Source: Candidatus Edwardsbacteria bacterium RifOxyA12_full_54_48 (GTDB lineage Bacteria > Edwardsbacteria > AC1 > EtOH8). Taken from it: DNA of 64,000 bases. The notes beneath the pieces are model-generated. The model did not search any database. It was not told the origin of the DNA and saw nothing but the letters and a program-made list of their open reading frames with translations. The position numbers were made by a program, and so were the translations under genes. Shown piece after piece: positions 2 to 59,356 of this stretch; position 1 is the first letter of the stretch, and every line of letters begins with the position of its first letter. The stretch lies in NCBI GenBank assembly GCA_001777915.1, contig MFFN01000004.1:425744-489743 (forward strand), in the 5' to 3' direction.

Positions 2-439
2 CGGGCCAACGGCGGGACTTTGCGCAACATCTCCACCCTGTGGAGCCTGCGTCCCCACACCGGCGATATCTGGACCGTTCACTGTTCCGGGCCCACCACT
101 CCGTCCGAAGGAGCCGTGGCCACCTTCATCCTGACCCCGGCGGTGCCCGACGACGGCCTGGCCCATCTGCTGCAGAACTTCCCCAACCCATTCGGAACCT
201 CCGGCACCAAAATTCATTACCAGGTCAGCGGTTCCGGCGCCGAGGTGAACCTCAAGGTCTACAACATAACCGGGCAGCTGGTTAAGGCCCTGGTCAGCGG
301 ATATAGGGCCCCGGGATATTACCAGGCCGTCTGGAACGGCCGGTCCGAGAACGGCCACAGAGTCTCAGCCGGCATATATATCTACCGCCTGGAGACGGCG
401 GGAAAGGCCGTCTCCAGAAGAATGATACTGATAAAATAA
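2..439 (+). CDS. 3' fragment (5' end cut by window edge) of a secreted protein ending in a Por_Secre_tail / T9SS-type (FlgD-Ig-like) C-terminal sorting domain; paralog of the next gene
   Basis: Frame is open from base 2. The tail ...NGGTLRNISTLWSLRPHTGDIWTVHCSGP...FPNPFGTSG...VYNITGQLV...GIYIYRLETAGKAVSRRMILIK matches the tail of the 476..3562 product (NGGTLRRMVWSQRPHTGDVWTVHCPGP...VPNPYL...IYNLAGDLI...GVFIYQIDA...AVIK). Confidence 0.6.
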   Translation, partial: RANGGTLRNISTLWSLRPHTGDIWTVHCSGPTTPSEGAVATFILTPAVPDDGLAHLLQNFPNPFGTSGTKIHYQVSGSGAEVNLKVYNITGQLVKALVSGYRAPGYYQAVWNGRSENGHRVSAGIYIYRLETAGKAVSRRMILIK

Positions 440-475
440 CCCAGACCCATATACAAAATTTATTGCGAGTCGTCC

Positions 476-3400
476 ATGAAAAGATCCATTCTTGCCCTCA
501 CGCTCTTGGCTCTGCTGCCCGCCGCCCAGGCATCCCTGGCCGCCCTGCCGGCCGGAAAACCACTGCCGGCCGGAAAATCGCTGTCCGCCCGGGTGCTCGA
601 CGCCAACGCCTGGGAGATCTGGACCTCCAACTACGGCCCCTTTGTCAATCCCACCATCGGGCCAGGAGGCTTCTGGCCCAAGGGCTCCGGACACAGTTAT
701 ATCTTCGGCGCCGGCCTGTGGGTGGGGGCCATCGATGCCAGCAACAGCAAGGTCGTGTCGGTGGGATACAACACCAGCAGCGGAGGCCACGAATTCGGGC
801 CGGAGCCCTGGGAATCCTATCTGACCGACCCCCGGGCCAGGGTCTACCTGTCCACCGACCTGCTCGACCTGGCCGAATGGCCGCTGGTGGCCGACGGCAA
901 AAAAGTGATCCGCTCGGTCCAGGACAGCTATTGCCGGTACAGCGATCTCAACCCCGCCTTCACCAGCCTGGGCGACAAGCAGCTTAAAGTGCAGGTCGAG
1001 CAGTTCTCCTATTCCTGGAATTACGCCGACAACAACGATATCGTCTTCTTCTACTTCAAGGTCAGGAACCGGAGCGGCACCACCCTCCGGAATGTCTATC
1101 TCGGACCGGCGGTGGATTCCGATATCGGCTATGATCCCTGGGATGACCTGGTGGCCTTCGATTACCTCCGCAACCTGGCCATGCAGTTCCAGAACCTGCC
1201 CCAGCCGGGCTGGGACCAGACCGGGGTGGTGGGTTTCCGCTTTTTGGAAAGCCCCGTCAACAACACCGGGAGCACCGTCAGCGTCATCGACAACCAGTTC
1301 TCCCATTACATCCCCTCCGGCGATCCTTTGGGGATGACGGCCTTTAAAACATTCACCTCGGAGCATGAGCCGACCACGGACGATGAGCGCTACCTGGAGC
1401 TTTGCGGCATCAACTTCTGGGACATGACGGGCGACGCCTACGACGAGCTGACCGATTACTACGGCGACAAGCGCTTCCTGATGTCCAGCGGGCCCTTCAA
1501 CCTGGGGCCCGATGCCGTCTGCGCCACCTGCCTCGGGATCATCGCCGCTTCGGACACCCTGGCGGTAAAGATCGCTTCGGACGTGGCCCAGATGATATAT
1601 GATAACGACTTTGCCCTGGCCAACACTCCAGCCGCCCCCGTCCTGACGGTCGCCCCGGGCGACAAACACGTGATCATCGGCTGGGACCGCCGGGCCGAGA
1701 CCACTCCCGACCCCTACTGGCAGGGCATGCCCGACAGCATGGGCTGGTATGCCTACTTCCCCGGCACCTGGGAGTGGCTGATGCCCTCCAGCCGGCTGCT
1801 GGTGGATTCGTTCAAGGTCAGGCTCAGCGACACCAGTTCGCTTAAAATGCCCCGGGGCGGGGCCAATCCAGGGACCGACACCCTGATGGCCCGCTACAAC
1901 CAGAGAAGCCTGTATGTCCGGTACGATTTTCAGGGCTATCTGGTCTATCGGGCCCGCCGCCTGGACGACCTGGCCTATCCCGGCCAGCGGGAGCCGGTGG
2001 GCACATTCTACACCGACCCGGACACCGGCTTGATCGACAGCACCCTGAGCTACGGAGGGGGCGCCGGTTATTGCTACGACAAGGTGGACGGAATCAAGAT
2101 CGTCATCGACCTGGTCCCCAACATCACTTATCTGCCCTGGACTTCTTATACCAGCCCCAGGCTGGACACCCTGGGTACCGACCGCGGCCTGGTCTACAGC
2201 CTGCGGGATGAAAATGTGATCAACGGCTTCGGCTGGTACTACGGGGTGGCGGCCTATGATTATCAGCCCAACGTCTACTTCACCCGCAAATGCCCCACCA
2301 CTCTCAGCAGCAGCCCTGTCGAGAACGCCGTCTATGCAGTGGCCCGGAAGCCCTTGGCCGACTACCGGGCCCCGGCGGTCAGCTATACCGTCACCGGCGG
2401 CTCGGACATCAGGACCGGAGGAACGGTCGATTACGAGTACACCTTGACCCTGGTGCCCAAGAAGGTCAACAACGATACCTTTCGGCTGGTATGGGGTCCG
2501 GTCACCAAGGCCGGCATCGCCGGGATAAACTACCCGGTATATCATGCCGAGCTGTACGACCGGCGCCTGGACAACCTGGGGGTCCCGGCCGACAGCATAC
2601 TGCAGTCCATAAACTTCCGGCCAGCCTATGGTGTTCTGGGCAGCGATCCGGCGGCCACCTTTCACGGAAACCTGGGAGACCAGATCCCCTTCGGTGGGGT
2701 GGTGTTCAACGCCAGCTACAAATTCGACCCGGCGCTGGCTAAGGTGGACACGGTATCGGTCACCGGCACCTATCCGGCCGACAGCATCTGGTGCCAGGTC
2801 CAGGGCAGCTCTTTGTTCACCGCCACTGCCAATGCTTGGCAATGGCGGGGAGCGGACTATGAGATCAGATGGAAGGATACCACGGTGGCCGCCAGGGCCT
2901 GCCTGACCGCTTCGGTTTGGGACCTGACCAACAACTGGGAGGTGCCCCTGGAATCCGGCATGACCAAGGCCAGCATGACCCAGTCCTCCTGGTGTTTCAA
3001 CGCCACCGCCAACATCTGCACCACTTATGTTGACAGCGCCATGAGCACCGCCTATCACAGCCTCTACCTGGCCGGGATCTCTTTATTCTTCAACCGCCGC
3101 AACGGGGGCACCCTGAGAAGGATGGTTTGGAGCCAGCGGCCGCACACCGGCGATGTCTGGACGGTACACTGCCCCGGGCCCGGCAACCCGGTTCAGGGCG
3201 GAACGGTGACCTTCATCACCACCCAGGCCTCCCAGAAAGCGGTCCTTTCGGCCAGCCTGCTGGACAGCATCAAGGTGGTGCCCAACCCCTACTTGGTGCG
3301 GGCCGGCTGGGATGTCAGCGGCAATTATCCCAAGCTCCATTTCGTCAACCTGCCGGCCAGGTGCACCATCCGGATCTACAACCTGGCCGGTGACCTGATC

Positions 3401-3562
3401 CGGGTGCTCAACCACCAGTCCACCTTTAATGACAACAACGGCACCGAGCGCTGGGATATCCTTTCCACTTACGATGAACGTCCCGCCAGCGGGGTGTTCA
3501 TTTACCAGATTGATGCGCCGGGCATCGGCACCAAGCTGGGCAAATTCGCGGTGATCAAGTAG
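476..3562 (+). CDS. Large secreted protein (1028 aa) of unknown function with N-terminal signal peptide and T9SS-type C-terminal sorting domain
   Basis: Signal peptide MKRSILALTLLALLPAAQASLA. The C-terminal ~90 aa carry the PNP...IYNLAGDLIRVL...GVFIYQIDA...K pattern of Por_Secre_tail. Long ORF with normal amino-acid composition. The reverse-strand ORF 365..3058 is a GC shadow. Confidence 0.7.
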   Translation: MKRSILALTLLALLPAAQASLAALPAGKPLPAGKSLSARVLDANAWEIWTSNYGPFVNPTIGPGGFWPKGSGHSYIFGAGLWVGAIDASNSKVVSVGYNTSSGGHEFGPEPWESYLTDPRARVYLSTDLLDLAEWPLVADGKKVIRSVQDSYCRYSDLNPAFTSLGDKQLKVQVEQFSYSWNYADNNDIVFFYFKVRNRSGTTLRNVYLGPAVDSDIGYDPWDDLVAFDYLRNLAMQFQNLPQPGWDQTGVVGFRFLESPVNNTGSTVSVIDNQFSHYIPSGDPLGMTAFKTFTSEHEPTTDDERYLELCGINFWDMTGDAYDELTDYYGDKRFLMSSGPFNLGPDAVCATCLGIIAASDTLAVKIASDVAQMIYDNDFALANTPAAPVLTVAPGDKHVIIGWDRRAETTPDPYWQGMPDSMGWYAYFPGTWEWLMPSSRLLVDSFKVRLSDTSSLKMPRGGANPGTDTLMARYNQRSLYVRYDFQGYLVYRARRLDDLAYPGQREPVGTFYTDPDTGLIDSTLSYGGGAGYCYDKVDGIKIVIDLVPNITYLPWTSYTSPRLDTLGTDRGLVYSLRDENVINGFGWYYGVAAYDYQPNVYFTRKCPTTLSSSPVENAVYAVARKPLADYRAPAVSYTVTGGSDIRTGGTVDYEYTLTLVPKKVNNDTFRLVWGPVTKAGIAGINYPVYHAELYDRRLDNLGVPADSILQSINFRPAYGVLGSDPAATFHGNLGDQIPFGGVVFNASYKFDPALAKVDTVSVTGTYPADSIWCQVQGSSLFTATANAWQWRGADYEIRWKDTTVAARACLTASVWDLTNNWEVPLESGMTKASMTQSSWCFNATANICTTYVDSAMSTAYHSLYLAGISLFFNRRNGGTLRRMVWSQRPHTGDVWTVHCPGPGNPVQGGTVTFITTQASQKAVLSASLLDSIKVVPNPYLVRAGWDVSGNYPKLHFVNLPARCTIRIYNLAGDLIRVLNHQSTFNDNNGTERWDILSTYDERPASGVFIYQIDAPGIGTKLGKFAVIK

Positions 3563-5666: not shown

Positions 5667-7523
5667 CTACCGGGCCGGCTGGGCCGCTGCCAGGGGCGTT
5701 ATCTCGAAATGGTCGCCGCTGAAATCCTGGCAGTTGACGGGAACCTTGATGCCTTCTTTTCTGGCCTCCTCGGCGAATTCGCGGTAGGCCTGGCCGCCAT
5801 CCCCGGCATGCATCGGGAATACCGCCCGGGGCCGCAGTTTCTCCATGGCGTAGAATGCCCCCATCCGCACCGCCACCACATCGCCGAAGTTACAGCCGGT
5901 CACCGGCATGAACATTATGTCGATGGGACGGCCCAGCCCGGCCATAAAATCGATCTCCTCCTTGTATGGTCCGGAAAAATCCCTCTTGCGGTTGGCATGG
6001 TCGCCCGGATGGCAGATGGTGACCCCGTCGACCGTCACCAAAAATCCCTGTCCGCTGTCATTGGATTCGATGGTGGTGATCTCGGCCCCGCCGATGCTCC
6101 GGCTCTCACGGGAGGCCAACTGGGTGAATCCCTCCTTGTCCCGGGGCGCGAATCCCATCACGTAGGTAATGTCGCTCAGGTCCTTTCTCCAGTCGAATAT
6201 GGCCGGCATGTAGTGGTCGCCATGAACATGGGAGGCGAAAACAATCACTTTGACCCCTTTTAGTTCTTCCGGCAAAATGGAGCCGTTGGCCAGACCCGGG
6301 CTGTCGGGCAGGCGGCCGTTTTTGAAATAGTCGAACACCAGCAGATGACCGCTGGTCCTGACGGCCCATCCGCTGTGCCCCAGGTACCAAACCGCTGCCT
6401 GGCCGTTTTTCAGCGGCTTGGACATCGGAGCGATCAGGCCCTCTTTCACCGCCTGCTTGCTTCCCTTGGCCCCTTTTGTCTTTAGCAGCGTTGCGCAGGC
6501 GGTCTGGCCGTATTGAATGGCATAATCGAGCGCCGTCTTGCCATCTTTGTCCTTGGCGTTGACCGCCACCCCCTTCTCCATCAGCAGGCCGGCAACATCG
6601 CCGTAGCCTTTGATGACAGCGTAATGGAGCAGGTTCCGCCGCTCGTTCCCATACTGCCCGTCAACGCGCGCACCTGACCCGATGAGCTCGGCGGCCAGGG
6701 CCAGATTCCCGCAGTTGACGGCCATGAACAACGGGGTCTGGCCAGCGGCGGTGACAGCATTGACATCGGCCCCTCGTGCGATCAGTGCCCGGGCGCCGGC
6801 GGTGTTTCCCTGGAGGCAGGCATTGTGGAGCGGGGTCCGGTCGCCGTCGGTCTTCTGGTCGACCGGTACGCCGTGGTCCGCCAGAAAGTCGATCAGATCC
6901 TTGCCGGCTTCCCAGGCTGCCGTGTGCATCAGGGTCCAGCTGGCGGGAAATTGGTTCCGCGGGTTCATCTTGGTTGTTGCTCCAAGTCGGATCAGTAATT
7001 TGACCGCCTCGGGCTGCCGCCGCTCCATAGCCAGCGAAACCACCGTATTCCCCACCCGGCTTAAGGAGTCGTTGACATCCGCTCCCTGGGAGACCAGAAA
7101 TTCGACCATAGGCAGTCGTCCCAGGGCTGCAGCGTAATACAAAGGTGTTTCATTGTCGCTTTCCCTGGCATTAAGATCGGCTTTTTGGGACAACAGAAAC
7201 TTGGCCACCTCTAGGTGGCCGTTCCCGGCGGCAAAATGAAGCGGCGTCAATTGGTAACTGGTATCGCGTTCAGTTACGGAAGCACCCTTTTTCATCAAAT
7301 ATTTGACGATATCCAACTTCCCCTCAAAGCAGGCTGTATGAAGGGGCAGGCGGCCTCGGGCATTGGGAACCTTTATGGCGGTTTTATCTTTTTCCACGAT
7401 CTTCTTCACCGCCGTCAGGTCGCCGGCCTGTATTGCGGCATGAATATCGGTTTCAAGCGCCATCGTTGTCGCTATAGTTTGTATCAGCAGCAGCCAGAGC
7501 AGGGAAAAAATAGCTTTTTTCAT
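5667..7523 (-). CDS. Secreted ankyrin-repeat protein fused to a C-terminal metallo-beta-lactamase-fold domain
   Basis: Signal peptide MKKAIFSLLWLLLIQTIATTMA. At least 8 ankyrin-type repeats (TPLH.A...G....V..LL..GA.VN pattern). C-terminal MBL-fold motifs (HSGWAV...HVHGDHY...D...H). Confidence 0.7.
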   Translation of the reverse strand: MKKAIFSLLWLLLIQTIATTMALETDIHAAIQAGDLTAVKKIVEKDKTAIKVPNARGRLPLHTACFEGKLDIVKYLMKKGASVTERDTSYQLTPLHFAAGNGHLEVAKFLLSQKADLNARESDNETPLYYAAALGRLPMVEFLVSQGADVNDSLSRVGNTVVSLAMERRQPEAVKLLIRLGATTKMNPRNQFPASWTLMHTAAWEAGKDLIDFLADHGVPVDQKTDGDRTPLHNACLQGNTAGARALIARGADVNAVTAAGQTPLFMAVNCGNLALAAELIGSGARVDGQYGNERRNLLHYAVIKGYGDVAGLLMEKGVAVNAKDKDGKTALDYAIQYGQTACATLLKTKGAKGSKQAVKEGLIAPMSKPLKNGQAAVWYLGHSGWAVRTSGHLLVFDYFKNGRLPDSPGLANGSILPEELKGVKVIVFASHVHGDHYMPAIFDWRKDLSDITYVMGFAPRDKEGFTQLASRESRSIGGAEITTIESNDSGQGFLVTVDGVTICHPGDHANRKRDFSGPYKEEIDFMAGLGRPIDIMFMPVTGCNFGDVVAVRMGAFYAMEKLRPRAVFPMHAGDGGQAYREFAEEARKEGIKVPVNCQDFSGDHFEITPLAAAQPAR

Positions 7524-19036: not shown

Positions 19037-19052
19037 TGTTTCACGTGAAACA
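19037..19052. other. parS: parS centromere-like site (perfect match to consensus TGTTTCACGTGAAACA)
   Basis: 16-bp perfect palindrome identical to the canonical ParB-binding parS consensus. A parB gene lies 17 kb downstream in this window. Confidence 0.8.
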
Positions 19053-19056
19053 ATAA

Positions 19057-19085
19057 CTCCCCTGCGGCCTCGACCGCAGGGGAGT
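19057..19085 (-). terminator. GC-rich hairpin between the two parS sites (possible terminator of the 19153..19350 gene)
   Basis: CTCCCCTGCGG cctcga CCGCAGGGGAG inverted repeat (11-bp arms). Only a weak U tract follows on the - strand. Confidence 0.35.
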
Positions 19086-19112
19086 TAAACGGCAATGATT
19101 TGTGTTGTCTGG

Positions 19113-19136
19113 GGAATGTTTCACGTGAAACATTCC
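19113..19136. other. parS: parS centromere-like site (core 19117..19132 = TGTTTCACGTGAAACA, extended to a 24-bp perfect palindrome)
   Basis: GGAATGTTTCACGTGAAACATTCC. The core is identical to the parS consensus. Centre is 80 bp from the first site. Confidence 0.8.
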
Positions 19137-19152: not shown

Positions 19153-19350
19153 TTATCTCTGCTCCGGGTTTTGCTCCCTTATGGCATACGCCAACTGTTG
19201 TCGGTTAATGCACCCCATCTCCACCAAGCACTCGCCGATCTTTTTTGAAGAATCGTTGATTTGTTTATATCTGGCCCGGATTATGTGTTCCACCGAGATG
19301 AATCCATGGGTCATCATTATTTCACCCAGCAGTTTTTTGTTCCTTTTCAT
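19153..19350 (-). CDS. 65-aa stand-alone MshEN-like (T2SSE_N-type) domain protein, candidate c-di-GMP receptor
   Basis: Two tandem 24-residue motifs, LLGEIMMTHGFISVEHIIRARYKQ and KIGECLVEMGCINRQQLAYAIREQ, 5 residues apart, fit the MshEN motif RLGxx(L/V/I)(L/V/I)xxG(L/V/I)(L/V/I)xxxxLxxxLxxQ. Confidence 0.5.
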   Translation of the reverse strand: MKRNKKLLGEIMMTHGFISVEHIIRARYKQINDSSKKIGECLVEMGCINRQQLAYAIREQNPEQR

Positions 19351-19362
19351 GGCTGCGTCCTT

Positions 19363-20478
19363 TTAAAAATTATAATTAATCCCAGCATATGCCAGGAGTT
19401 TTTTATAATTATAAAGCTCATCATTGGATGAATTATTGACATAATTAATCCCCGCCCCCAAATCTATGCCGTTGGGGCCATCTGACAACGGAGCGGTGTA
19501 GTCTATTCCCAAAACAGTCTCTCGGTCCAGCCGGACGGTCCCCAAACTTTGTCTGGTTAATATGCTGGCATTGTCCGCTGCCGGAAGGCTATAGGCATCA
19601 AGCTTGTCATAGCTTCTGCTGATATAATTGGCCCATAAGGCCATCTTCCCGGCGGGTTCAAGTATTAAAGTTACTTTTGCCCCCACCTGGCCGCCGGAAT
19701 AATCAAAATATTCGTTCACCTCGCTCAGTAAAGTGTCGGGCATATAATAAGGATCGGCGGTGGTCACCTGGTTTGTTAAATACGAGCATTCCAGGGAAAG
19801 GCCGATATTTGATCCAAGCCCCTGGCTTACCCGGCAACCCGGAGACAGGTTTGTAATATTCACTGGAACCTGGCTGTCGGCAGGCAAGGGAGAGAAATCG
19901 TACTTTTTATATCCTGCTAAAATTGTCAAACCGCTCCGGGTAGGAAGAAATATATTTATGGATAGGTTTGCTATTGATTGATCAAAGTCATATTTTGGTA
20001 AATTCTTATATTGATATCTCCCCAGGGCCCCGTCCGCTTTTAACAGCACCGGTTGAGCAATATATATTTTTGTCTCGCCGATAACTTTAAAATTATTGGT
20101 ATCATAAGCCGAGCGGTCCGCAGCATTGAATTGAAAGCTATAAGCGCCACCCAAACCAACGAAACCATCTTTTCCCAAATTCCGCCACAGGATCATTTTC
20201 AGCAAATGGTCGTTTTGATTGATGCCCAAATAACTGAGGTAGGCGCTGTAGCTGCCGGAATAATCAGCTCCCAAAATCATCCCGGCCAATTTTAAGTCAA
20301 TGTCGGTGTTAAGATCCAACCGGGCGGTTCCGACCACGCTGCCTCCGCCGTAGGAATCGTTATAGGCATTGCTGTCGTATTCGCCGCTCACCCCGATGCT
20401 TCCTTTGATCTGGGCAAATAAGGTTCCTGATAAAACTATTGTGATTATCCCGGTAATATAGAATTTTAAATTCCTCAT
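19363..20478 (-). CDS. Outer-membrane beta-barrel protein of unknown function
   Basis: Signal peptide MRNLKFYITGIITIVLSGTLFA. Alternating amphipathic beta-strand pattern. C-terminal ...YAGINYNF with terminal Phe typical of OMPs. Confidence 0.55.
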   Translation of the reverse strand: MRNLKFYITGIITIVLSGTLFAQIKGSIGVSGEYDSNAYNDSYGGGSVVGTARLDLNTDIDLKLAGMILGADYSGSYSAYLSYLGINQNDHLLKMILWRNLGKDGFVGLGGAYSFQFNAADRSAYDTNNFKVIGETKIYIAQPVLLKADGALGRYQYKNLPKYDFDQSIANLSINIFLPTRSGLTILAGYKKYDFSPLPADSQVPVNITNLSPGCRVSQGLGSNIGLSLECSYLTNQVTTADPYYMPDTLLSEVNEYFDYSGGQVGAKVTLILEPAGKMALWANYISRSYDKLDAYSLPAADNASILTRQSLGTVRLDRETVLGIDYTAPLSDGPNGIDLGAGINYVNNSSNDELYNYKKLLAYAGINYNF

Positions 20479-20561: not shown

Positions 20562-21068
20562 CTATCGGCCCCGCCCGGTGGTTGTGCTGCCGCCCTTCTT
20601 GCCATTGGCTCCGCCTTTGGGCGTCATATCATCATCCTTTCCGTCCTTTTTACGGGTACGGGTTCTGGTCTGCTCCTTGGTCTGGGTGGAATCGGATATA
20701 CCATCTCCATCCTCGTCCCGATATCTGGTCTGGGTCATTTCGCCCTGGCCCTTGTCGCCTTCCTCGGTGCGAGTGCGGATCTTCTGGTCCTGGCCTTTAT
20801 TCTGGGTGCGGACCTTGTTTTGTTCCTTTACCTTAGCAGAGTCGCTCTCCGTCAATTTCTTCTCTTCCCTGGTTCTGGTCTGGGCCATCTCGCCTTGTCC
20901 ATTTTGGCCCTCTTCAGTTCGAACCCTCAATTGGGTCTCCTCGCCCTGATTTTTAGTTTTGATCTCATTTTTCATTTTCAGACTGTCGCCCTCTTCAGCC
21001 AGGGCCACTGTGGTCAAGGCTAGAGAAAAAATTAAGACCGGCAGCAAAAGCATGATGAATTTCTTCAT
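20562..21068 (-). CDS. Small secreted low-complexity protein with K/T/E/Q/G-rich internal repeats
   Basis: Signal peptide MKKFIMLLLPVLIFSLALTTVALA. Repeated units ...RTEEGQNGQGEMAQTRTREE... / ...RTEEGDKGQGEMTQTRYRDED... KGG-type ending (TPKGGANGKKGG). The DNA is correspondingly repetitive. Confidence 0.5.
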   Translation of the reverse strand: MKKFIMLLLPVLIFSLALTTVALAEEGDSLKMKNEIKTKNQGEETQLRVRTEEGQNGQGEMAQTRTREEKKLTESDSAKVKEQNKVRTQNKGQDQKIRTRTEEGDKGQGEMTQTRYRDEDGDGISDSTQTKEQTRTRTRKKDGKDDDMTPKGGANGKKGGSTTTGRGR

Positions 21069-35033: not shown

Positions 35034-35669
35034 ATGAATAAAAGACCCTTTTCCGGCCTTCGTTCAATAGCCGCAATGATGGCCCTGGCGGTCATCATCC
35101 CGGGATGCGCCACATTGACCCAGATGGCTGGGGCGCTGTCCAACCTGCAGCGCCTGAAGTTCAAGGTGGCCGGGGTGGCCGACTTCACGGTGTCGGGCAT
35201 CGCCATCGCCGGCAAGCAGAAGATCGGTGATTTCACCCTGCTGGACGGGATCAACCTGATGGCGGCCTACCGCAGCAGGAAACTGCCGGCCGGGTTCACC
35301 CTCAACATCGAGGCGATCAATCCCAACGACGGCACCGGGGGCTCGCCCCAGACCAGCTCCACCCTGACCAGCTTCGAATGGCGCCTGCTGATAGACGACA
35401 AGCCCACCGTCTCCGGCAATATTGCGAGGCCCATCGAGATCCCCGGCACCGGACAGTCGGCGGCCATCCCGCTGCAGATAAGCCTGAACCTGGTGGAGTT
35501 CTTCGGGGAGAAGGGATACAACGACCTGCTGAACCTGGCCCTGGCCTTGGGCGGGGCCCAAAGCGACATCAGCCGTCTGGCCATAGACGCCCAGCCCCGG
35601 GTCAGCACCCCGCTGGGCGAGATCACCTATCCCGGGCGGATCACCATAGTATCCCAGGAATACAGATAA
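35034..35669 (+). CDS. Lipoprotein, possibly LEA_2/WHy (LEA14-like) family
   Basis: Lipobox AVIIPGC. Beta-rich sequence with ...NIEAINPND... and ...FEWRLLIDDKPTVSGNIARPIEIPG... resembling LEA14-like desiccation-related proteins. Family call is tentative. Confidence 0.4.
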   Translation: MNKRPFSGLRSIAAMMALAVIIPGCATLTQMAGALSNLQRLKFKVAGVADFTVSGIAIAGKQKIGDFTLLDGINLMAAYRSRKLPAGFTLNIEAINPNDGTGGSPQTSSTLTSFEWRLLIDDKPTVSGNIARPIEIPGTGQSAAIPLQISLNLVEFFGEKGYNDLLNLALALGGAQSDISRLAIDAQPRVSTPLGEITYPGRITIVSQEYR

Positions 35670-35679
35670 AGGAGCATCA

Positions 35680-36243
35680 ATGAACGTAAAGGGAACCGCA
35701 CTGGCGGTGCTGCCGATCTTCATCGAAAGCAAATTCGGCAAAGAAGGACTTAACAAATGGCTGGAATCGCTGAACACCGAGGCGGTGGCCTTGTACCAGG
35801 AGGCCAACACCATCAAGCTCAACCAGTGGTACCCTTTAAAGGAAAGCTACCTGGAGCCCACTGCGGCCCTGTGCGAGCTTTTTTATGACAACGATCCCAA
35901 AGGAGCCTGGGAGGTGGGCCGGTTCAGCGCCGACTATGCCCTTAAAGGCGTATACAAAGCCTTCGTCAAAATGACCTCGGTCAGCTTCTTCATCAAACGG
36001 GCCAGCCTGCTGATGACCACCTACTACCAGCCCAGCACCATGGAGCTCAAATCGTCCACCTACAGCCAGGCGGTCCTGCACATGACCGAATTTCCCGAGG
36101 CCCACCACCTGATAGAATCGCGCATCGGCGGCTGGATCCAACGCTCCCTGGAGATCCACGGCTGCAAGGAGGTGGCGGTGGAGACTACCAAATCCCTGGC
36201 CGACGACGATCCCCACACCGAATTCATTTTAAGCTGGAAATAA
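35680..36243 (+). CDS. Hypothetical cytoplasmic protein (187 aa)
   Basis: Protein-like ORF with RBS context, 10 bp after the preceding gene. No family recognised by eye. Confidence 0.45.
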   Translation: MNVKGTALAVLPIFIESKFGKEGLNKWLESLNTEAVALYQEANTIKLNQWYPLKESYLEPTAALCELFYDNDPKGAWEVGRFSADYALKGVYKAFVKMTSVSFFIKRASLLMTTYYQPSTMELKSSTYSQAVLHMTEFPEAHHLIESRIGGWIQRSLEIHGCKEVAVETTKSLADDDPHTEFILSWK

Positions 36244-47068: not shown

Positions 47069-48196
47069 ATGTCCCGCAAAAAAACATCCCTAGAAAAAAA
47101 CGTCCCGGACCAGGCCGGGGAGAATTCCACGTTAAAGCTGATCGAACGCTTGACCGCGGCTCCCGGGCCATCGGGCTACGAGACCCGGGCCGCCTTGGCC
47201 GCCGGTGAGGAGCTGGCCCCCTTCGCCACCAAGGTCAAGGTGGACAAGATGGGCAGCGTGGTGGCCTTCAAAAAGGGGCTGTCCCGGGACGGCAAAAAGA
47301 TCCTGCTGGCGGCCCATCTGGACGAGATCGGCCTGCTGATCACCGGCATCGAGCCGGGGGGATTCCTGCGCTTCACCCAGGTGGGCGGACTCGACGCCCG
47401 GGTGCTGCTGGGACAGGAGGTGCTGCTGCATCCGGTCGGCCGGTACGGCCCGGACACCCGGATCGCCCTGCCGGGCATCATCGGAGCCAAGCCGCCGCAT
47501 TTCCAGACCCCGGAGGAATCGAGCCAGGTGATCCCCCTGGAGGACCTGTATATCGACCTGGGGCTGGACGAGGCGGCAGCCAAAGCCAGGGTCTCCATCG
47601 GCGATCTGGCCACCCCGAGAATGCCCCTTACCAATCTCAAGAACGACCGGGCGGCCGGAAAGGCCATGGACAACCGGGCCTGCATCGCCATCATGGTCCA
47701 GGCCCTGGAGATACTCAGCAAATGCCATCATAGCTGGGATGTTTATGCGGTGGCCACCGTCCAGGAGGAGGTGTCCGGCCTGGGGGCGCTGACCTCGGCT
47801 TTCGAGATCCATCCCGACATCGGAATAGCCATAGACGTCACCCACGGCGACATGCCGGGGGTGCCCGACAGCGACACCTTCGCCATCGGCAAGGGGCCCA
47901 CCATCACCGTCGGGCCCAACATCCACCCGGCCATCGCCGACAAATTGAAGAAGGTGGCCAAGCGCGAGGAGATCCCCTTTCAGATAGAGCCCTGCGCCGG
48001 ACTAACCGGGACCGATGCGGTGGATATTCAGATATCCCAAGAGGGCATCCCCACCGGCCTGCTGGGCCTGCCCCTGCGCTACATGCACACCCCGGTGGAG
48101 ACCCTGGCGGCAGTGGACGTGGAGCGCTCGGCCAGATTGCTGGCCCGCTTCATCCAAGACCTGGACGATATAAACTTGGAATGGAAAGACGACTAA
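47069..48196 (+). CDS. M42-family (TET/FrvX-like) aminopeptidase, paralog 1
   Basis: LLAAHLDEIGLLITGIE, VQEEVSGLG, metal-ligand contexts typical of M42 glutamyl-aminopeptidase family. 375 aa. Confidence 0.8.
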   Translation: MSRKKTSLEKNVPDQAGENSTLKLIERLTAAPGPSGYETRAALAAGEELAPFATKVKVDKMGSVVAFKKGLSRDGKKILLAAHLDEIGLLITGIEPGGFLRFTQVGGLDARVLLGQEVLLHPVGRYGPDTRIALPGIIGAKPPHFQTPEESSQVIPLEDLYIDLGLDEAAAKARVSIGDLATPRMPLTNLKNDRAAGKAMDNRACIAIMVQALEILSKCHHSWDVYAVATVQEEVSGLGALTSAFEIHPDIGIAIDVTHGDMPGVPDSDTFAIGKGPTITVGPNIHPAIADKLKKVAKREEIPFQIEPCAGLTGTDAVDIQISQEGIPTGLLGLPLRYMHTPVETLAAVDVERSARLLARFIQDLDDINLEWKDD

Positions 48197-48237
48197 AAGA
48201 CCTGAACAAAAAATAAAACAGTTAGGCTTAAAACTAA

Positions 48238-48618
48238 ATGCTTACTCAAGGTATTGATATAATTTTAGAAAACGAAAAGGAAGGTTGGTTTCCACTCGCT
48301 CCCAGCAGCGGCCTTCGTGGAAAAGTTATCCGCACTATACCGGTTGATCCACCACAAGTGCCATTTTACTTGATACAACTTAATTCCCCTCTAGAAATTC
48401 AAGAACCCGCAAAAGACACACCATCTGGTCTTCGCCTTCAACTTTACAGCCATCTTGTTGTGCGCTCACGTTGGGTGGGGATACCGCTTGGCTCAAAACC
48501 GTCGATATCGGCACAGGTATTTCTTGTTCCCATTAATGCAACTTTGCCATCAACACCTTTAGAACTTAAGGATCATAATCCAGATATTTGGGCCTCATGC
48601 TCAATCGCGTCCCAATGA
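48238..48618 (+). CDS. Hypothetical ORF in a low-GC insert (may be non-coding)
   Basis: 126-aa ORF in ~40% GC DNA between two M42 paralogs. No recognisable family. Weak start context. Confidence 0.2.
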   Translation: MLTQGIDIILENEKEGWFPLAPSSGLRGKVIRTIPVDPPQVPFYLIQLNSPLEIQEPAKDTPSGLRLQLYSHLVVRSRWVGIPLGSKPSISAQVFLVPINATLPSTPLELKDHNPDIWASCSIASQ

Positions 48619-48668
48619 GAGGAGAGGCTCAAAGAAATCAGAATAATAATTTTAATACGGAACAAAAA

Positions 48669-49709
48669 ATGATAGACCTTAAACTGATAGCAGAGATCAC
48701 CAACGCTTTCGGGGTCAGCGGCTGCGAAGGCGAGATCCGCAACATCGTCCGCCAGCACATCACCAAGAACGTGGATGACATCCGGGTGGACGCCCTGGGA
48801 AACCTGATAGCCTACAAAAAAGCCAAGGGGGCAAAATCAGTCCCAAAGAGAACCAAGGTGATGCTGGCCGCCCACATGGACGAGGTGGGATTGATGGTCA
48901 CATCCATCGATAAATCGGGTTTTCTGCAGTTCGACAAGGTGGGGGGGATTGACAATCGGGTGCTGCTGGCCAAGAAGGTGCTGGTGGGAAAGGACCAGAT
49001 CCCCGGGGTGATCGGCTCCAAGGCTATCCATCTCATTGCTCGTAAAGGAGAACTTAAAAAAGTTTCTCCTTACAGCGATCTCTCCATAGACATCGGGGCC
49101 AGCAGCCAAGAGGACGCCCAGAAGTTCGTCTCCCCGGGCGATTATGTGATGTTCAACACCAGGTTCGAGGACTGGGGAAGGACCCTCAAGGCCAAGGCCT
49201 TTGACGATCGGATCGGCTGTTACCTGATAATCGAACTGCTGAAAGGTAAATACCCCTTTGACATCTACGCCGCCTTTACCACCCAGGAGGAGGTCGGCTT
49301 GCGGGGCGGCCGGGTGGCGGCCTATAAGGACGAGCCGGACATGGCCTTCATCCTGGAGGGCACCGGGGCCGGGGACATGCCCCAGCCCAAGGAGCGGGAC
49401 GAAAGCCTGGTGCCGGGACTGGGCCTGGGGCCGGTGATCACAATCATGGACCGCTCGGTGTTCTGCGACCAGGGCTTGGTGAAACTGCTGACCGACACCG
49501 CCCGGGCCAATCGGATCCCCCATCAGATCAAACGGCCCGGAATAGGCGGCACCGATGCCGGACGGATCCACCTGAGCAAGGGCGGCGTCCCCTCGGTGGT
49601 GCTGGCCATCCCCTCGCGCTACATCCACTCGCCGGTGTGCCTGTCCAGCAAAAAGGACATCCAGAACGCCCTGCGGCTGATGCAGCTGGCCCTGAAGAGG
49701 GTCAAATAA
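48669..49709 (+). CDS. M42-family aminopeptidase, paralog 2 (start at MIDLK; the ORF is open from 48588)
   Basis: MLAAHMDEVGLMVTSID, TTQEEVGLRGGRVAA, conserved C-terminal GGTDAGRIHL. Confidence 0.8.
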   Translation: MIDLKLIAEITNAFGVSGCEGEIRNIVRQHITKNVDDIRVDALGNLIAYKKAKGAKSVPKRTKVMLAAHMDEVGLMVTSIDKSGFLQFDKVGGIDNRVLLAKKVLVGKDQIPGVIGSKAIHLIARKGELKKVSPYSDLSIDIGASSQEDAQKFVSPGDYVMFNTRFEDWGRTLKAKAFDDRIGCYLIIELLKGKYPFDIYAAFTTQEEVGLRGGRVAAYKDEPDMAFILEGTGAGDMPQPKERDESLVPGLGLGPVITIMDRSVFCDQGLVKLLTDTARANRIPHQIKRPGIGGTDAGRIHLSKGGVPSVVLAIPSRYIHSPVCLSSKKDIQNALRLMQLALKRVK

Positions 49710-49767
49710 AAAAAGAGAGCCGGGGGCTCCCATTAAAGATCGTCGTTTATTGAATATCGGCGGCTGT

Positions 49768-50124
49768 TCATACCGCCGCAGCTATCTGCTCCAGAAGTTT
49801 TAGGGTGTCGAAAGGCTTGGAGACCACGTCTATCACGTTGAACTTTCCGGCCCGGGCCCGCAGCTCGGGGCTGCCGAAGGCGGTGATGATGATCACCGGA
49901 AGCTCCGGCCAGCGGTGACGGACCTCGCACAGCACCTCGATGCCGTCCATGCCGGGCAGCATGTAGTCCAGCAGCAGCAGGTCGGCCGCTTTTTTGCCCA
50001 TCTGCTCCAAGCCGCCCGGGCCGTCGTAGGCCACCATGGCCTCGTACCCCTCGGACTCCAGCAGGGTGGTCATCATCTCCCCCACTGCCGGCTCGTCGTC
50101 GATGATCATTATTTTCTTGTTCAT
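49768..50124 (-). CDS. Single-domain response-regulator receiver (CheY-like)
   Basis: MIIDDEPAV...LLLLDYMLPGMDG...PVIIITAFG...K: phospho-acceptor Asp, T/K positions all present. 118 aa. Confidence 0.8.
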   Translation of the reverse strand: MNKKIMIIDDEPAVGEMMTTLLESEGYEAMVAYDGPGGLEQMGKKAADLLLLDYMLPGMDGIEVLCEVRHRWPELPVIIITAFGSPELRARAGKFNVIDVVSKPFDTLKLLEQIAAAV

Positions 50125-50282
50125 CCGCTCTCCAGAAATGATACTGTCGGGGCTGCCGCCCCTTAACTGACCAATCAGTATATAACAATTTTTTTTACAA
50201 AGTCAAGCTTTTTCTGATCCGGCCAATACCCGCCGGGAACTTCTGCCGGATGATGTTGCGCCCCAAGCCCAGGATTTTATCA

Positions 50283-50311
50283 TTGACAGAGGGGACAAAA
50301 AGCCATAATAT
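50283..50311 (+). promoter_or_regulatory. Consensus-like sigma70 promoter TTGACA-N17-TAATAT upstream of M42 paralog 3
   Basis: TTGACA at 50283..50288, 17-nt spacer, TAATAT at 50306..50311. 68 bp upstream of the ATG at 50379. Confidence 0.45.
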
Positions 50312-50378
50312 TAACCGTTGCCCCTCGGTTTAACAGCTATTTATAAAAAAAAGACAACCCTTTATAAGGAAATATTTA

Positions 50379-51383
50379 ATGAAAGACATCATCAAAAGAC
50401 TCACCGAGACCTACGGCCCGTCCGGCAGCGAAAGGCAGATCCGGGAGCAGATCAAAAAAGAGATCCGGGGGCTGGCCGACCAGGTCAGCACCGATGTGCT
50501 GGGCAACCTGATAGCGATCAAGAAGGGCAAGGGCTCCCGGGTGATGGTGGCGGCCCATATGGACGAGATCGGGTTCATCGTTACCCATATAGACAAGAAC
50601 GGCTTCCTGCGCTTCTCCAACATCGGCGGGATCTACCCCTATAATATCATCGCCCAGCGGGTGATATTCGAGAACGGCCTTATCGGCACCATCAACGAGG
50701 AGCGTTCGGAGAAACCGGCCGATCCCCGGCGGCTGGACCGGATGTATATCGACATCGGCGTCAAGGATCATAAACAGGCCTCTGCCAGGGTATCGGTGGG
50801 CGACGTGGCCGGGTTTCACCGGAGCTGCGAATTCCTGGGCGACCGGGTCGTCGCCAAATCAATGGATGACCGGATCGGCTGCGCCATCATGATCGAGGCC
50901 ATGAAACAGCTTAAGAAAAGCCCCAACCAGATATATTTCGTTTTCACCACCCAGGAGGAGGTGGGGCTGCGGGGGGCCACCACCGCCGCTTTCGGGGTGG
51001 CCCCGGACCTGGGGATAGCGGTGGATATCACCGGAGCCTTCGATACTCCCGAGGAGAAGCCCAAGCTGCCTTCGGTGCTGGGAAAGGGGACCGCCATCAA
51101 GATCAAGGATGCCGGGATGCTGGCCCATCCGGGGGTGAAAAAACTGCTGGTGGATACCGCCCGGGCCGGCCGGATCCCCTACCAGTTTGACATCCTGGAG
51201 GGCGGGACCACCGACGGATCGGTGATCAACAAGACCAAGTCCGGCATTCCCACCGGGGTGCTGTCAGTACCCACCAGGTATGCCCACTCGGCCTCGGAGA
51301 TGGTGGATATGATTGACGTTAAAGCCACGGTGGACCTGCTGGTCAAAGTGCTCTCATCGAACCTCAGGGCCAAGGGATTCTAA
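50379..51383 (+). CDS. M42-family aminopeptidase, paralog 3
   Basis: MVAAHMDEIGFIVTHID, FTTQEEVGLRGATTAA, GGTTDGS. 334 aa. Confidence 0.8.
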   Translation: MKDIIKRLTETYGPSGSERQIREQIKKEIRGLADQVSTDVLGNLIAIKKGKGSRVMVAAHMDEIGFIVTHIDKNGFLRFSNIGGIYPYNIIAQRVIFENGLIGTINEERSEKPADPRRLDRMYIDIGVKDHKQASARVSVGDVAGFHRSCEFLGDRVVAKSMDDRIGCAIMIEAMKQLKKSPNQIYFVFTTQEEVGLRGATTAAFGVAPDLGIAVDITGAFDTPEEKPKLPSVLGKGTAIKIKDAGMLAHPGVKKLLVDTARAGRIPYQFDILEGGTTDGSVINKTKSGIPTGVLSVPTRYAHSASEMVDMIDVKATVDLLVKVLSSNLRAKGF

Positions 51384-59282: not shown

Positions 59283-59300
59283 AAGATGTTAAAACATCTT
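59283..59300. promoter_or_regulatory. 18-bp perfect palindrome AAGATGTTAAAACATCTT, candidate operator overlapping the promoter of the HD-GYP/cyclase operon
   Basis: Perfect inverted repeat immediately 5' of a TTGCCA ... TATAAT-like promoter region, ~55 bp upstream of the ATG at 59357. Confidence 0.4.
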
Positions 59301-59356
59301 TGCCAAATCACTTAGACAATATAATAAACTATAATGCCTTTTCAGGGAGGGATGCC

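What the first reader, a model, noticed from the sequence alone, without database searches (positions are those of the whole stretch)
19153..19350. Stand-alone 65-aa MshEN-like mini-protein (candidate minimal c-di-GMP receptor) next to the parS sites
The ORF consists of essentially nothing but two tandem 24-residue motifs, LLGEIMMTHGFISVEHIIRARYKQ and KIGECLVEMGCINRQQLAYAIREQ, separated by 5 residues. This is the arrangement and spacing of the c-di-GMP-binding MshEN (T2SS-E N-terminal) domain. Motif II fits the published consensus RLGxx(L/V/I)(L/V/I)xxG(L/V/I)(L/V/I)xxxxLxxxLxxQ at every position. Motif I has M-M and R substitutions. Here it is not fused to an ATPase or other output domain. 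The gene sits between an OMP gene and the parS pair.
Basis: partly seen in the sequence, partly recalled or inferred. Interest (0 to 1): 0.65.

Follow-up and report, generated by a model that had tools for sequence, protein, structure and literature searches.

The report
Stand-alone MshEN-like c-di-GMP mini-receptor
A real, conserved 65-residue gene encodes only the four-helix nucleotide-binding half of the MshE/PilB "MshEN" c-di-GMP receptor domain; it belongs to a large uncharacterised family of such free-standing mini-proteins in Edwardsbacteria, TA06 and WOR-3, and its position next to the parS sites is incidental.

Summary
The 65-aa ORF at 19153-19350(-) is a real gene. It has an AAGGA ribosome-binding site, a terminator, and dN/dS of about 0.11. 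It is an MshEN_N-type domain: it scores 42.4 bits against NCBIfam NF053729 (cut-off 38), reaches 96% hhalign probability against V. cholerae MshE, and its AF2 four-helix bundle superposes on c-di-GMP-bound MshE at 1.1 Å. It carries no output domain.

The spacer is 6 residues, not 5. Motif II does not fit the consensus at every position. Motif I has Leu at position 1 and Arg27 where MshE has the guanine-stacking Leu29.

These departures are family constants. Of 112 free-standing homologues (52-90 aa; Edwardsbacteria, TA06, WOR-3), 111 have Arg27, none has Arg or Lys at position 1, and 108 have the 6-residue spacer. Both Gly and both Gln ligand contacts are invariant.

The neighbouring 371-aa protein is a predicted outer-membrane β-barrel, and the parS pair is real. 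However, TA06-like relatives keep the barrel gene and the parS-hairpin-parS module without the mini gene, so neither link is obligate.

Most likely this is a small diffusible c-di-GMP-binding adaptor (confidence about 0.6). Binding and partner are untested. It is a new variant of a known kind, of moderate interest.

The parts
19153..19350 (-). Gene for the 65-aa stand-alone MshEN_N mini-protein (start ATG at 19350-19348; the coordinates include the stop codon)
   Evidence: ORF. NCBIfam NF053729 42.4 bits against a cut-off of 38. AF2 pLDDT 87 with four helices. dN/dS 0.11 against the 89%-identical orthologue.
19261..19332 (-). Motif I (residues 7-30, LLGEIMMTHGFISVEHIIRARYKQ), forming helices 1-2. 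It has Leu at position 1 and Arg27 at position 21.
   Evidence: Residue-to-base coordinates were computed from the start codon at 19350.
19243..19260 (-). Six-residue spacer (INDSSK, residues 31-36)
   Evidence: The spacer is 6 residues in 108 of 112 family members.
19171..19242 (-). Motif II (residues 37-60, KIGECLVEMGCINRQQLAYAIREQ), forming helices 3-4
19358..19362 (-). Shine-Dalgarno-like AAGGA, 7 nt upstream of the ATG, in the 12-nt gap after the stop codon of the beta-barrel gene
   Evidence: Read from the sequence. Similar purine-rich sequences sit upstream of the orthologues.
19054..19087 (-). Intrinsic-terminator-like hairpin (15 pairs) that ends the operon; it lies between the two parS sites
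   Evidence: The hairpin is conserved in relatives.
19363..20478 (-). Operon context: 371-aa predicted outer-membrane beta-barrel (signal peptide, C-terminal ...NYNF), immediately upstream
   Evidence: AF2 pLDDT 86, all-beta. Foldseek matches OmpG, CymA, OprD and PgaA at E of 1e-7 to 7e-9. No Pfam or NCBIfam hit.
20562..21068 (-). Operon context: 168-aa signal-peptide protein rich in K/E/T/Q repeats; first gene of the unit
   Evidence: Conserved upstream of the barrel gene in relatives. A promoter-like TTGTCT-17-TATAAT lies at 21193-21165.
19117..19132 (.). Context only: parS site 1 (TGTTTCACGTGAAACA), 20 nt past the stop codon
19037..19052 (.). Context only: parS site 2

Best explanation
The gene encodes a cytoplasmic, single-domain MshEN_N protein: a four-helix bundle made of two tandem 24-residue helix-turn-helix motifs. 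I infer that it binds one molecule of c-di-GMP in the groove between the two motifs. The backbone amides after Gly9 and Gly39 and the side chains of Gln30 and Gln60 would read the two guanines. The hydrophobic set Leu8/Leu53/Ile57 would cover guanine 2. Guanine 1 would be sandwiched between Leu7 on one face and Ile23/Arg27/Ile38 on the other; this inverts the MshE arrangement, in which Arg9 faces Leu25/Leu29/Leu39. With no output domain, the protein would act in trans as a small diffusible adaptor (or buffer) that passes the c-di-GMP level to a partner not yet identified, as single-domain PilZ proteins do. It is co-transcribed as the last gene of a three-gene envelope operon (secreted repeat protein, outer-membrane beta-barrel, mini-protein). 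It is a lineage-specific paralogue of a widespread 62-66-aa family in Edwardsbacteria, TA06 and WOR-3. Shown here: the gene, its homology, fold, conservation and operon structure. Inferred: ligand identity, the geometry of the Arg27 pocket, and the adaptor role.
For: Homology:
- NF053729 'c-di-GMP_motif, MshE-related' scores 42.4 bits against a cut-off of 38, E=4.4e-11.
- hhalign of the family against the MshE N-terminus gives 95.9% probability, E=5.6e-9.
- The family profile hits only MshEN/GSPII domains in the PDB.

Fold:
- AF2 pLDDT 87, helices 8-14, 20-32, 38-44 and 50-60.
- The top Foldseek hits are 5htl (MshE with c-di-GMP; TM 0.76-0.78, rmsd 1.1-1.2 Å) and c-di-GMP-bound PilF GSPII-B.

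Sufficiency and tolerated changes:
- Isolated VcMshEN_N 1-62 binds c-di-GMP with KD 0.35 uM (PMC5013675).
- Leu at position 1 is tolerated: PilF K167L has KD 2 nM with a crystal structure, giving the extended consensus (R/K/L)LG... (PMC11731258). R1M is tolerated in a CheA-fused MshEN_N.

Conservation of the ligand site:
- In 112 free-standing homologues G9, G39, Q30, Q60, L42 and G46 are invariant or nearly so, and positions 8, 23, 38, 53 and 57 stay hydrophobic. The documented non-binder XpsE has lost these residues.

Real gene:
- dN/dS is 0.11; against L004 synonymous sites are saturated (pS 0.94) while pN is 0.21.
- It has an SD-like site and a terminator.

c-di-GMP signalling in the organism:
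- A GAF-GAF-HD-GYP protein with intact HD...HHEKLDGKGYP motifs is encoded at 59300-61027.
Against: - Arg27 replaces MshE Leu29, a member of the guanine-1 leucine triad. L29A lowers affinity 28-fold and L29V 4-fold. L29R is one of eight changes blamed for the loss of binding in XpsE.
- The spacer is 6 residues rather than 5.
- No tested MshEN domain with Arg at this position was found in the papers read.
- Pfam T2SSE_N does not hit.
- Three of six free-standing members scanned (the window protein and five relatives) score at or below the NF053729 cut-off.
- No diguanylate cyclase was seen in the 64-kb window.
- No partner can be named: neighbours differ between lineages, and the barrel gene occurs without the mini gene.
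Confidence: 0.6

Rival explanations
1. It is a degenerate, ligand-free MshEN_N bundle that works only as a protein-protein interaction module. Precedents are the N-terminal GSPII domains of XpsE (which binds XpsL) and of Xanthomonas PilB (which binds PilZ), neither of which binds c-di-GMP.
For: The L29R-equivalent substitution is one of the changes listed for the non-binder XpsE. L29A costs 28-fold in affinity. The structural neighbours include the non-binding Xanthomonas PilB N-terminal domain in complex with PilZ (7lkm) and PilF GSPII-A (9g1w). Neither motif matches the published relaxed regex.
Against: Known non-binders have lost the Gly and Gln contact residues: G11V, G40L and Q61V in XpsE, and G40E in the D. 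geothermalis domain III. Here G9, G39, Q30 and Q60 are invariant in 105-112 of 112 homologues that are otherwise only 35-50% identical. That pattern is expected for a maintained nucleotide pocket. The best structural matches are the ligand-bound forms.
Confidence: 0.2
2. It is a receptor for a different cyclic (di)nucleotide, such as 3'3'-cGAMP or a mixed dinucleotide. On this reading the invariant Arg27, the Leu or Met at position 1 and the 6-residue spacer re-tune specificity.
For: VcMshEN binds cGAMP weakly (legend to Fig. 1h of PMC5013675). The Arg27/Leu7/6-residue-spacer signature is a family constant that sets these proteins apart from fused MshEN domains: Arg at position 21 occurs in 15 of 16 short proteins but in 9 of 264 domains of long proteins, and in 111 of 112 in the larger set. 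In the main 63-aa branch the next gene encodes a stand-alone cNMP-binding protein.
Against: There is no direct evidence. Both half-sites keep the guanine-reading Gly and Gln. An HD-GYP protein is present in the window. Arg stacking on guanine is typical of c-di-GMP receptors (my own knowledge).
Confidence: 0.08
3. It is a chromosome-partition or origin-associated factor functionally tied to the adjacent parS pair (a ParB/parS accessory protein).
For: The first parS lies within 20 nt of, or overlaps, the 3' end of the mini gene in all orthologous loci. The locus is in the origin region, with gidA, gidB, parA, parB, dnaA and dnaN.
Against: TA06-like relatives keep the barrel gene followed directly by the same parS-hairpin-parS module but have no mini gene (L018, L019). 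The much larger 63-aa branch of the family sits at an unrelated locus without parS. No DNA-binding fold was detected.
Confidence: 0.03
4. It is not a functional gene: either a chance ORF or a decayed N-terminal fragment of a PilB/GspE-type ATPase gene.
For: The ORF is small, has no Pfam hit above threshold, and is annotated 'hypothetical protein' in NCBI records.
Against: dN/dS is 0.11, and the protein is conserved although synonymous sites are saturated. It has its own SD-like site, stop codon and terminator. More than 100 distinct clusters of the same size were found in three candidate phyla. There are no ATPase remnants downstream.
Confidence: 0.02

Closest known systems
MshEN_N subdomain of Vibrio cholerae MshE (PDB 5HTL; Wang et al. 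2016, PMC5013675)
   Same: Both have two tandem 24-residue motifs forming a four-helix bundle. The Gly at position 3 and the Gln at position 24 of both motifs are kept, as is the motif-II leucine triad. The predicted structure superposes at 1.1 Å. The isolated 1-62 fragment of MshE binds c-di-GMP on its own with KD 0.35 uM.
   Different: In MshE the subdomain is fused to MshEN_C and a T2SSE ATPase; here it is the whole protein. Position 1 of motif I is Leu instead of Arg9. Arg27 replaces Leu29. The spacer is 6 residues, not 5. Sequence identity is about 25%.
GSPII-B domain of Thermus thermophilus PilF (PDB 8PDK and the K167L mutant 8PE0; PMC11731258)
   Same: Position 1 is non-Arg (K167 and L196 in the wild type), and a Leu engineered at position 1 of motif I gives a KD of 2 nM with hydrophobic stacking on guanine. 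A Glu follows the conserved Gly (E170; E10 and E40 here). It is among the best sequence and structural matches.
   Different: GSPII-B is part of a 889-aa ATPase with three GSPII domains and has a C-terminal subdomain. It keeps Leu at the Leu29-equivalent position and has a 5-residue spacer.
cce_1044 of Cyanothece sp. ATCC 51142, the (MshEN_N)2 architecture (Suppl. Table 4 of PMC5013675)
   Same: It is a small protein made only of MshEN_N units with no output domain. About a dozen such 127-138-aa proteins are among the top hits.
   Different: It has two bundles per chain (about 145 aa) instead of one. It lacks the Arg-at-position-21 signature (sequence). The single-unit architecture is not listed in that table.
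Single-domain PilZ adaptor proteins such as P. aeruginosa MapZ/PA4608 (my own knowledge; the domain class is discussed in PMC12448109)
   Same: The working principle is the same: a free-standing c-di-GMP-binding domain that acts in trans on a partner protein.
   Different: The fold is unrelated (beta-barrel PilZ with RxxxR/DxSxxG motifs), so this is not a homologue. PilZ adaptors are about twice the size.
CdbA of Myxococcus xanthus (67 aa; PMC7156744)
   Same: It is a c-di-GMP receptor of similar size, which shows that a receptor of about 65 aa has a precedent.
   Different: [quoted passage not shown] There is no homology.

Membership tests
MshEN_N c-di-GMP-binding domain (NCBIfam NF053729; Wang et al. 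2016) | Scores above the curated cut-off of the family's profile | tested here: met
   42.4 bits against a cut-off of 38, E=4.4e-11. The model aligns as two stretches because of the longer spacer.
MshEN_N c-di-GMP-binding domain (NCBIfam NF053729; Wang et al. 2016) | Four-helix bundle formed by two helix-turn-helix motifs, superposable on MshEN_N | tested here: met
   AF2 pLDDT 87 with four helices. 5htl: TM 0.76-0.78, rmsd 1.1-1.2 Å over 55-56 columns. All 11 best hits are c-di-GMP-bound MshE or PilF GSPII-B. The Foldseek E-values are only about 0.03 because the query is short.
MshEN_N c-di-GMP-binding domain (NCBIfam NF053729; Wang et al. 2016) | Gly at position 3 of both motifs (G11 and G40 in MshE; G11L and G40I abolish or severely cut binding) | tested here: met
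   G9 and G39 are present. They are invariant in the 112-member family.
MshEN_N c-di-GMP-binding domain (NCBIfam NF053729; Wang et al. 2016) | Gln at position 24 of both motifs (Q32 and Q61) | tested here: met
   Q30 and Q60 are present. They occur in 112 of 112 and 111 of 112 family members.
MshEN_N c-di-GMP-binding domain (NCBIfam NF053729; Wang et al. 2016) | Position 1 of each motif is R, or K/L in the extended consensus of PMC11731258 | tested here: met
   Motif I has L7 and motif II has K37. Both are allowed by the extended (R/K/L) consensus. L7 is outside the 2016 consensus and its relaxed [RKPN] set.
MshEN_N c-di-GMP-binding domain (NCBIfam NF053729; Wang et al. 2016) | Two hydrophobic triads that stack on the guanines (L25/L29/L39 and L10/L54/L58 in MshE) | tested here: not met
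   The second triad is kept (L8/L53/I57). The first is I23/R27/I38: Arg replaces Leu29. This Arg is invariant in the free-standing family, 111 of 112.
MshEN_N c-di-GMP-binding domain (NCBIfam NF053729; Wang et al. 2016) | 5-residue spacer between the motifs (53-residue unit) | tested here: not met
   The spacer is 6 residues, giving a 54-residue unit; 108 of 112 family members have 6. Wang et al.'s own alignments admit spacers with 2-3 extra residues, so this feature is soft.
MshEN_N c-di-GMP-binding domain (NCBIfam NF053729; Wang et al. 2016) | Binds c-di-GMP with nanomolar to low-micromolar affinity | not testable with these tools
   This needs ITC, DRaCALA or DSF on purified protein.
Full GSPII / T2SSE_N domain (Pfam PF05157; MshEN = MshEN_N + MshEN_C) | Match to the whole-domain profile, including the C-terminal alpha/beta subdomain | tested here: not met
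   PF05157 gives no hit even at E up to 10; the only Pfam hit is a weak DUF4388 match (E=0.02). The protein ends 5 residues after motif II, so MshEN_C is absent.
Free-standing single MshEN_N mini-proteins of Edwardsbacteria/TA06/WOR-3 (defined here) | 52-90 aa, one MshEN_N unit, Leu or Met at position 1, Arg at position 21 of motif I, 6-residue spacer | tested here: met
   The window protein has all of these features. It belongs to a 65-aa sub-branch (IIRARYKQ), whereas the main 63-aa branch has INEARRxQM.

The most novel reading that the evidence does not exclude
The free-standing minis form a distinct, previously undescribed subclass of MshEN receptors with a rewired guanine-1 pocket. A hydrophobic residue replaces the canonical Arg at position 1, an invariant Arg replaces the canonical Leu29, and the spacer is one residue longer. 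On this reading the rewiring either changes nucleotide specificity or affinity, or makes up for the missing MshEN_C subdomain. The minis would then act in trans as the general c-di-GMP (or other cyclic dinucleotide) adaptors of Edwardsbacteria, TA06 and WOR-3. One possible target is the secretion or pilus ATPases that lack their own MshEN domain, such as the 503-aa T2SSE protein about 3.4 kb from the 63-aa gene in L021.
Probability: 0.15. Interest if true: 0.6.

Novelty: new variant of a known kind. Interest (0 to 1): 0.4.

Why it matters
MshEN is one of only two or three widespread c-di-GMP receptor domains, and it has been studied only as part of larger proteins. A natural 65-residue version that is nothing but the binding bundle, present in more than 100 sequence clusters, would be the smallest natural unit of this receptor class. 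Three consequences would follow. It would show that MshEN_N, like PilZ, is used as a trans-acting adaptor. It would provide c-di-GMP receptor candidates for candidate phyla in which none are known. It would offer a compact scaffold for biosensors and for studying the Leu/Arg stacking rules; the invariant Arg at the Leu29 position is a natural experiment on that pocket. The study also shows that the eye-catching parS neighbourhood carries no functional message.

Tried and rejected
- Pfam scan: there was no T2SSE_N hit, only a weak DUF4388 match. I do not treat this as refutation, because the Pfam model covers the whole two-subdomain unit.
The claim 'fits at every position' is therefore rejected, although profile methods succeed.
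- parS coupling: I tested it by looking for parS in all fetched loci. It is rejected because the parS-hairpin-parS module follows the barrel gene directly in TA06-like genomes that lack the mini gene.
- Obligate partnership with the beta-barrel: rejected for the same reason, and because the 63-aa branch has different neighbours.
- Fusion in trans to the Wzc-like tyrosine kinase at 55465-57723. This was suggested by the weak EpsG hit. There is no supporting evidence; the kinase gene is 36 kb away and has no MshEN remnant.
- The search for related loci with the 17-sequence alignment failed because no stretch was conserved enough. With the 8-sequence alignment it found only two Edwardsbacteria MAGs among species-representative genomes.
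- Foldseek against afdb50 was unavailable.
- Literature search for a described single stand-alone MshEN_N protein: none was found in the library. Only the (MshEN_N)2 architecture is listed.
- A scan for a second MshEN_N in the window found none.
- I could not obtain model coordinates, so the geometry of Arg27 relative to the pocket was not measured.

Full report
**1. The observation**

It runs 19153..19350 on the minus strand and encodes 65 aa, MKRNKKLLGEIMMTHGFISVEHIIRARYKQINDSSKKIGECLVEMGCINRQQLAYAIREQNPEQR. The segment between them is INDSSK, which is six residues, not five.

- Motif II fails only because of C47 at position 11. Its other departures are conservative: K for R, I for L, and I57 for L.
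- Motif I has Leu at position 1 and Arg27 at position 21.

The two perfect parS sites are real. They lie at 19037-19052 and 19117-19132, and 0.06 matches are expected by chance.

**2. It is a real gene**

- An AAGGA sits 7 nt upstream of the ATG, in the 12-nt gap after the stop codon of the upstream gene.
- A 15-pair terminator-like hairpin follows at 19087-19054.
- A promoter-like site lies upstream of the first gene of the unit, at 21193-21165.
- Against the 89%-identical orthologue, pS is 0.36 and pN is 0.05, giving dN/dS of 0.11. Against the 68%-identical orthologue, synonymous sites are saturated (pS 0.94) while pN is 0.21.
- The identical protein occurs on contigs listed in 70 blocks of the collection, some longer than 1 Mb, and is labelled Candidatus Edwardsbacteria.

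**3. What it is**

Sequence evidence:
- NCBIfam NF053729 ('cyclic di-GMP-binding domain-containing protein, MshE-related', a 53-position model) scores 42.4 bits against a curated cut-off of 38, E=4.4e-11.
- Weaker hits are to the MshEN-bearing ends of NfrB-type glycosyltransferases and of EpsG.
- Pfam T2SSE_N does not hit. That model spans the entire two-subdomain GSPII unit, and this protein ends five residues after motif II.
- A profile of 17 free-standing homologues hits only MshEN/GSPII domains in the PDB: PilF at 2.2e-15 and MshE at 1.5e-7, followed by PilB proteins.
- The same profile aligns to the MshE N-terminus with 95.9% hhalign probability.

Structural evidence:
- AlphaFold2 gives a confident four-helix bundle (pLDDT 87; helices 8-14, 20-32, 38-44 and 50-60).
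- Its eleven best PDB neighbours are all c-di-GMP-bound MshE (5htl; TM 0.76-0.78, rmsd 1.1-1.2 Å) or c-di-GMP-bound PilF GSPII-B.

Homology to MshEN_N and the absence of any other domain are therefore established.

**4. A large family with its own signature**

The exhaustive profile search found 1513 proteins at E≤0.001. Most are multi-repeat or multi-domain proteins, but 17 of the 157 sequences held after that search were 59-74 aa.

A second search with the mini-protein profile returned 386 proteins at E≤1e-5. Of the best 120, 112 are 90 aa or shorter, mostly 62-66 aa. Where they are named, they come from Candidatus Edwardsbacteria, candidate division TA06 and WOR-3. UniRef already auto-names some of them, including this exact protein, 'Type II secretion system protein GspE N-terminal domain-containing protein'.

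Across the 112:
- G9, I11, A26, Q30, G39, E40, L42, G46 and Q60 are invariant or nearly so.
- Position 1 of motif I is Leu (73) or Met (21) and never Arg or Lys.
- Arg27 is present in 111 of 112.
- The spacer is 6 residues in 108 and 7 in 4.

By contrast, among the MshEN_N units of longer proteins in the first hit list, position 21 is Leu in 178 of 264 and Arg in 9 of 264. No unit with Arg at position 21 has Arg at position 1. The features that looked like defects of this one ORF are therefore defining constants of a free-standing subclass.

**5. Does it bind c-di-GMP?**

In favour:
- The isolated MshE fragment 1-62 binds c-di-GMP with KD 0.35 µM, slightly better than the full domain (PMC5013675).
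- Leu at position 1 has been validated experimentally. PilF GSPII-B K167L binds at 2 nM with the Leu stacked on the guanine, and the authors extended the consensus to (R/K/L)LG… (PMC11731258).
- Met at position 1 is tolerated in a CheA-fused unit.
- The residues whose mutation abolishes binding (G11 and G40) and the guanine-reading Gln residues are exactly the residues that are invariant here. Non-binders such as XpsE have lost them.
- The window encodes a GAF-GAF-HD-GYP protein with intact HD and HHEKLDGKGYP motifs. This suggests the organism turns over c-di-GMP.

Against:
- Arg27 sits at the position of Leu29. L29A costs 28-fold and L29V 4-fold in affinity.
- L29R is among the eight changes listed for XpsE.
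- I found no tested domain with Arg at this position.

Positions 23, 27 and 30 lie on one face of helix 2 (i, i+4, i+7), so Arg27 points into the guanine-1 pocket. I infer that an Arg there, opposite a Leu or Met at position 1, forms an inverted version of the MshE Arg9 / Leu25-Leu29-Leu39 sandwich. That is an inference. I could not measure it because model coordinates are not exposed. I put c-di-GMP binding at about 0.6-0.65.

**6. Neighbourhood**

The upstream 371-aa protein has no family hit. It has a signal peptide and a C-terminal …NYNF. With 23 homologues it folds as an all-β barrel (pLDDT 86) that matches OmpG, CymA, the OprD/Occ porins and the PgaA barrel.

The three-gene unit (168-aa secreted repeat protein, barrel, mini-protein) is conserved in relatives down to 51-63% barrel identity.

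The link is not obligate. In TA06-like genomes the barrel is 38-40% identical and the surrounding order (gidA, small gene, barrel, ilvE) is kept, but no mini gene is present. There the parS-hairpin-parS module begins at the barrel gene's stop codon. In L004 and in L010/L020 the first parS overlaps the 3' end of the mini gene and even supplies its last codons (…CFT*, …VSRET…, …VARET*). The parS module therefore belongs to the locus, which lies in the origin region (gidA, gidB, parA, parB, dnaA and dnaN are all in the window). The mini gene is a lineage-specific insertion in front of it.

The same Edwardsbacteria assembly that carries the orthologue P0002 (KJ620_05620) also carries a 63-aa paralogue, P0211 (KJ620_07785). 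P0193, a 63-aa mini, and P0181, the barrel orthologue of the TA06-like locus L019 that lacks a mini gene, share the same longest-contig length (793,492 bases). This suggests that one genome carries the 63-aa type but has no mini gene at the barrel locus.

That main 63-aa branch has its own conserved context in both Edwardsbacteria- and TA06-like contigs: DUF1844, then a LysM/FlgT_C protein, then the mini gene, then a 158-aa cNMP-binding protein, lying divergently next to the alanine racemase gene. A third context places the mini gene after a T9SS-tailed M6 peptidase. No common partner emerges, apart from a tendency to follow envelope or secreted-protein genes.

**7. Mechanism**

Most likely (0.6) this is a small cytoplasmic c-di-GMP-binding adaptor or buffer that acts in trans, analogous to single-domain PilZ proteins. 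The rivals are:
- a ligand-free interaction module (0.2);
- a receptor for another cyclic nucleotide (0.08);
- a parS-related function (0.03);
- a non-gene (0.02).

**8. Comparison with what is known, and novelty**

The domain is known, and automated annotation already recognises this protein as GspE-N-like. Wang et al. list (MshEN_N)2 and many fusions but not a single free-standing unit. I found no paper in the library that describes one.

A c-di-GMP receptor of 65 aa has a size precedent in CdbA, which is 67 aa but has an unrelated fold.

I rate this a new variant of a known kind. The free-standing architecture, together with the Leu/Met at position 1, the Arg at position 21 and the 6-residue spacer, forms a coherent subclass that has not been characterised. 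Interest is moderate (0.4). The finding is useful and testable but not surprising to a specialist, and the parS angle falls away.

Noticed in passing
window 19037-19132; also L001-L008, L010, L016-L020: A conserved module: parS, then a GC-rich terminator hairpin (19054-19087), then a second parS. It follows the barrel gene directly in TA06-like genomes. In some relatives the first parS overlaps and supplies the last codons and stop of the mini gene (...CFT*, ...VARET*). In L004 and L010 the second site carries one mismatch.
   Followed up: yes
L011:2055-4350, L012, L013, L021-L023:4479-6709: The main 63-aa branch of the mini-protein family sits in a conserved four-gene module: DUF1844, then a LysM/FlgT_C-like 379-397-aa protein, then the MshEN_N mini gene, then a stand-alone 158-aa cNMP-binding protein. 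The module lies divergently next to the alanine racemase gene, in both Edwardsbacteria- and TA06-like contigs. In L021 a 503-aa T2SSE ATPase without a recognisable MshEN N-terminus lies about 3.4 kb downstream.
   Followed up: partly
window 59300-63297: A GAF-GAF-HD-GYP protein with intact HD and HHEKLDGKGYP motifs. Its stop overlaps the start of a CHASE2-class III adenylate/guanylate cyclase gene (61024-63297). This looks like a two-gene second-messenger unit.
   Followed up: partly
window 21286-55312: The window covers the replication-origin region: mnmG/gidA (21286), rsmG/gidB (30627), parA (34241), parB (36273), dnaA (52618) and dnaN (54203). parA and parB are separated by two ORFs with no family hit (35034-36243).
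   Followed up: partly
window 20562-21068 (-): A 168-aa signal-peptide protein made of K/E/T/Q/R-rich near-repeats (...RTEEGQNGQGEMAQTRTREE... and ...RTEEGDKGQGEMTQTRYRDE...). It has no family hit and is conserved as the first gene of the barrel operon in all relatives.
   Followed up: no
family alignment, residue 41 of the window protein (window 19228-19230): A Cys directly after the invariant Gly-Glu of motif II (IGECL) is present in 84 of 112 free-standing minis. It is not part of the published MshEN consensus, and its role is unknown.
   Followed up: no
window 47069-51383: Three paralogous M42 glutamyl-aminopeptidase genes lie in a row (47069-48196, 48588-49709, 50379-51383), followed by an M23 peptidase gene.
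   Followed up: no
window 365-3562: Two very long overlapping ORFs lie on opposite strands (476-3562 on the plus strand, 1028 aa; 365-3058 on the minus strand, 897 aa). The plus-strand ORF has no Pfam hit. Which one is the gene was not resolved.
   Followed up: no
window 55465-57723: A Wzc-type polysaccharide co-polymerase/tyrosine autokinase (Wzz-GNVR-AAA_31) gene lies immediately after dnaN. Unlike EpsG-type kinases, it has no fused MshEN_N unit.
   Followed up: partly
window 5667-7523 (-): A 618-aa protein that combines many ankyrin repeats with a metallo-beta-lactamase-fold domain, an unusual architecture for a bacterium.
   Followed up: no
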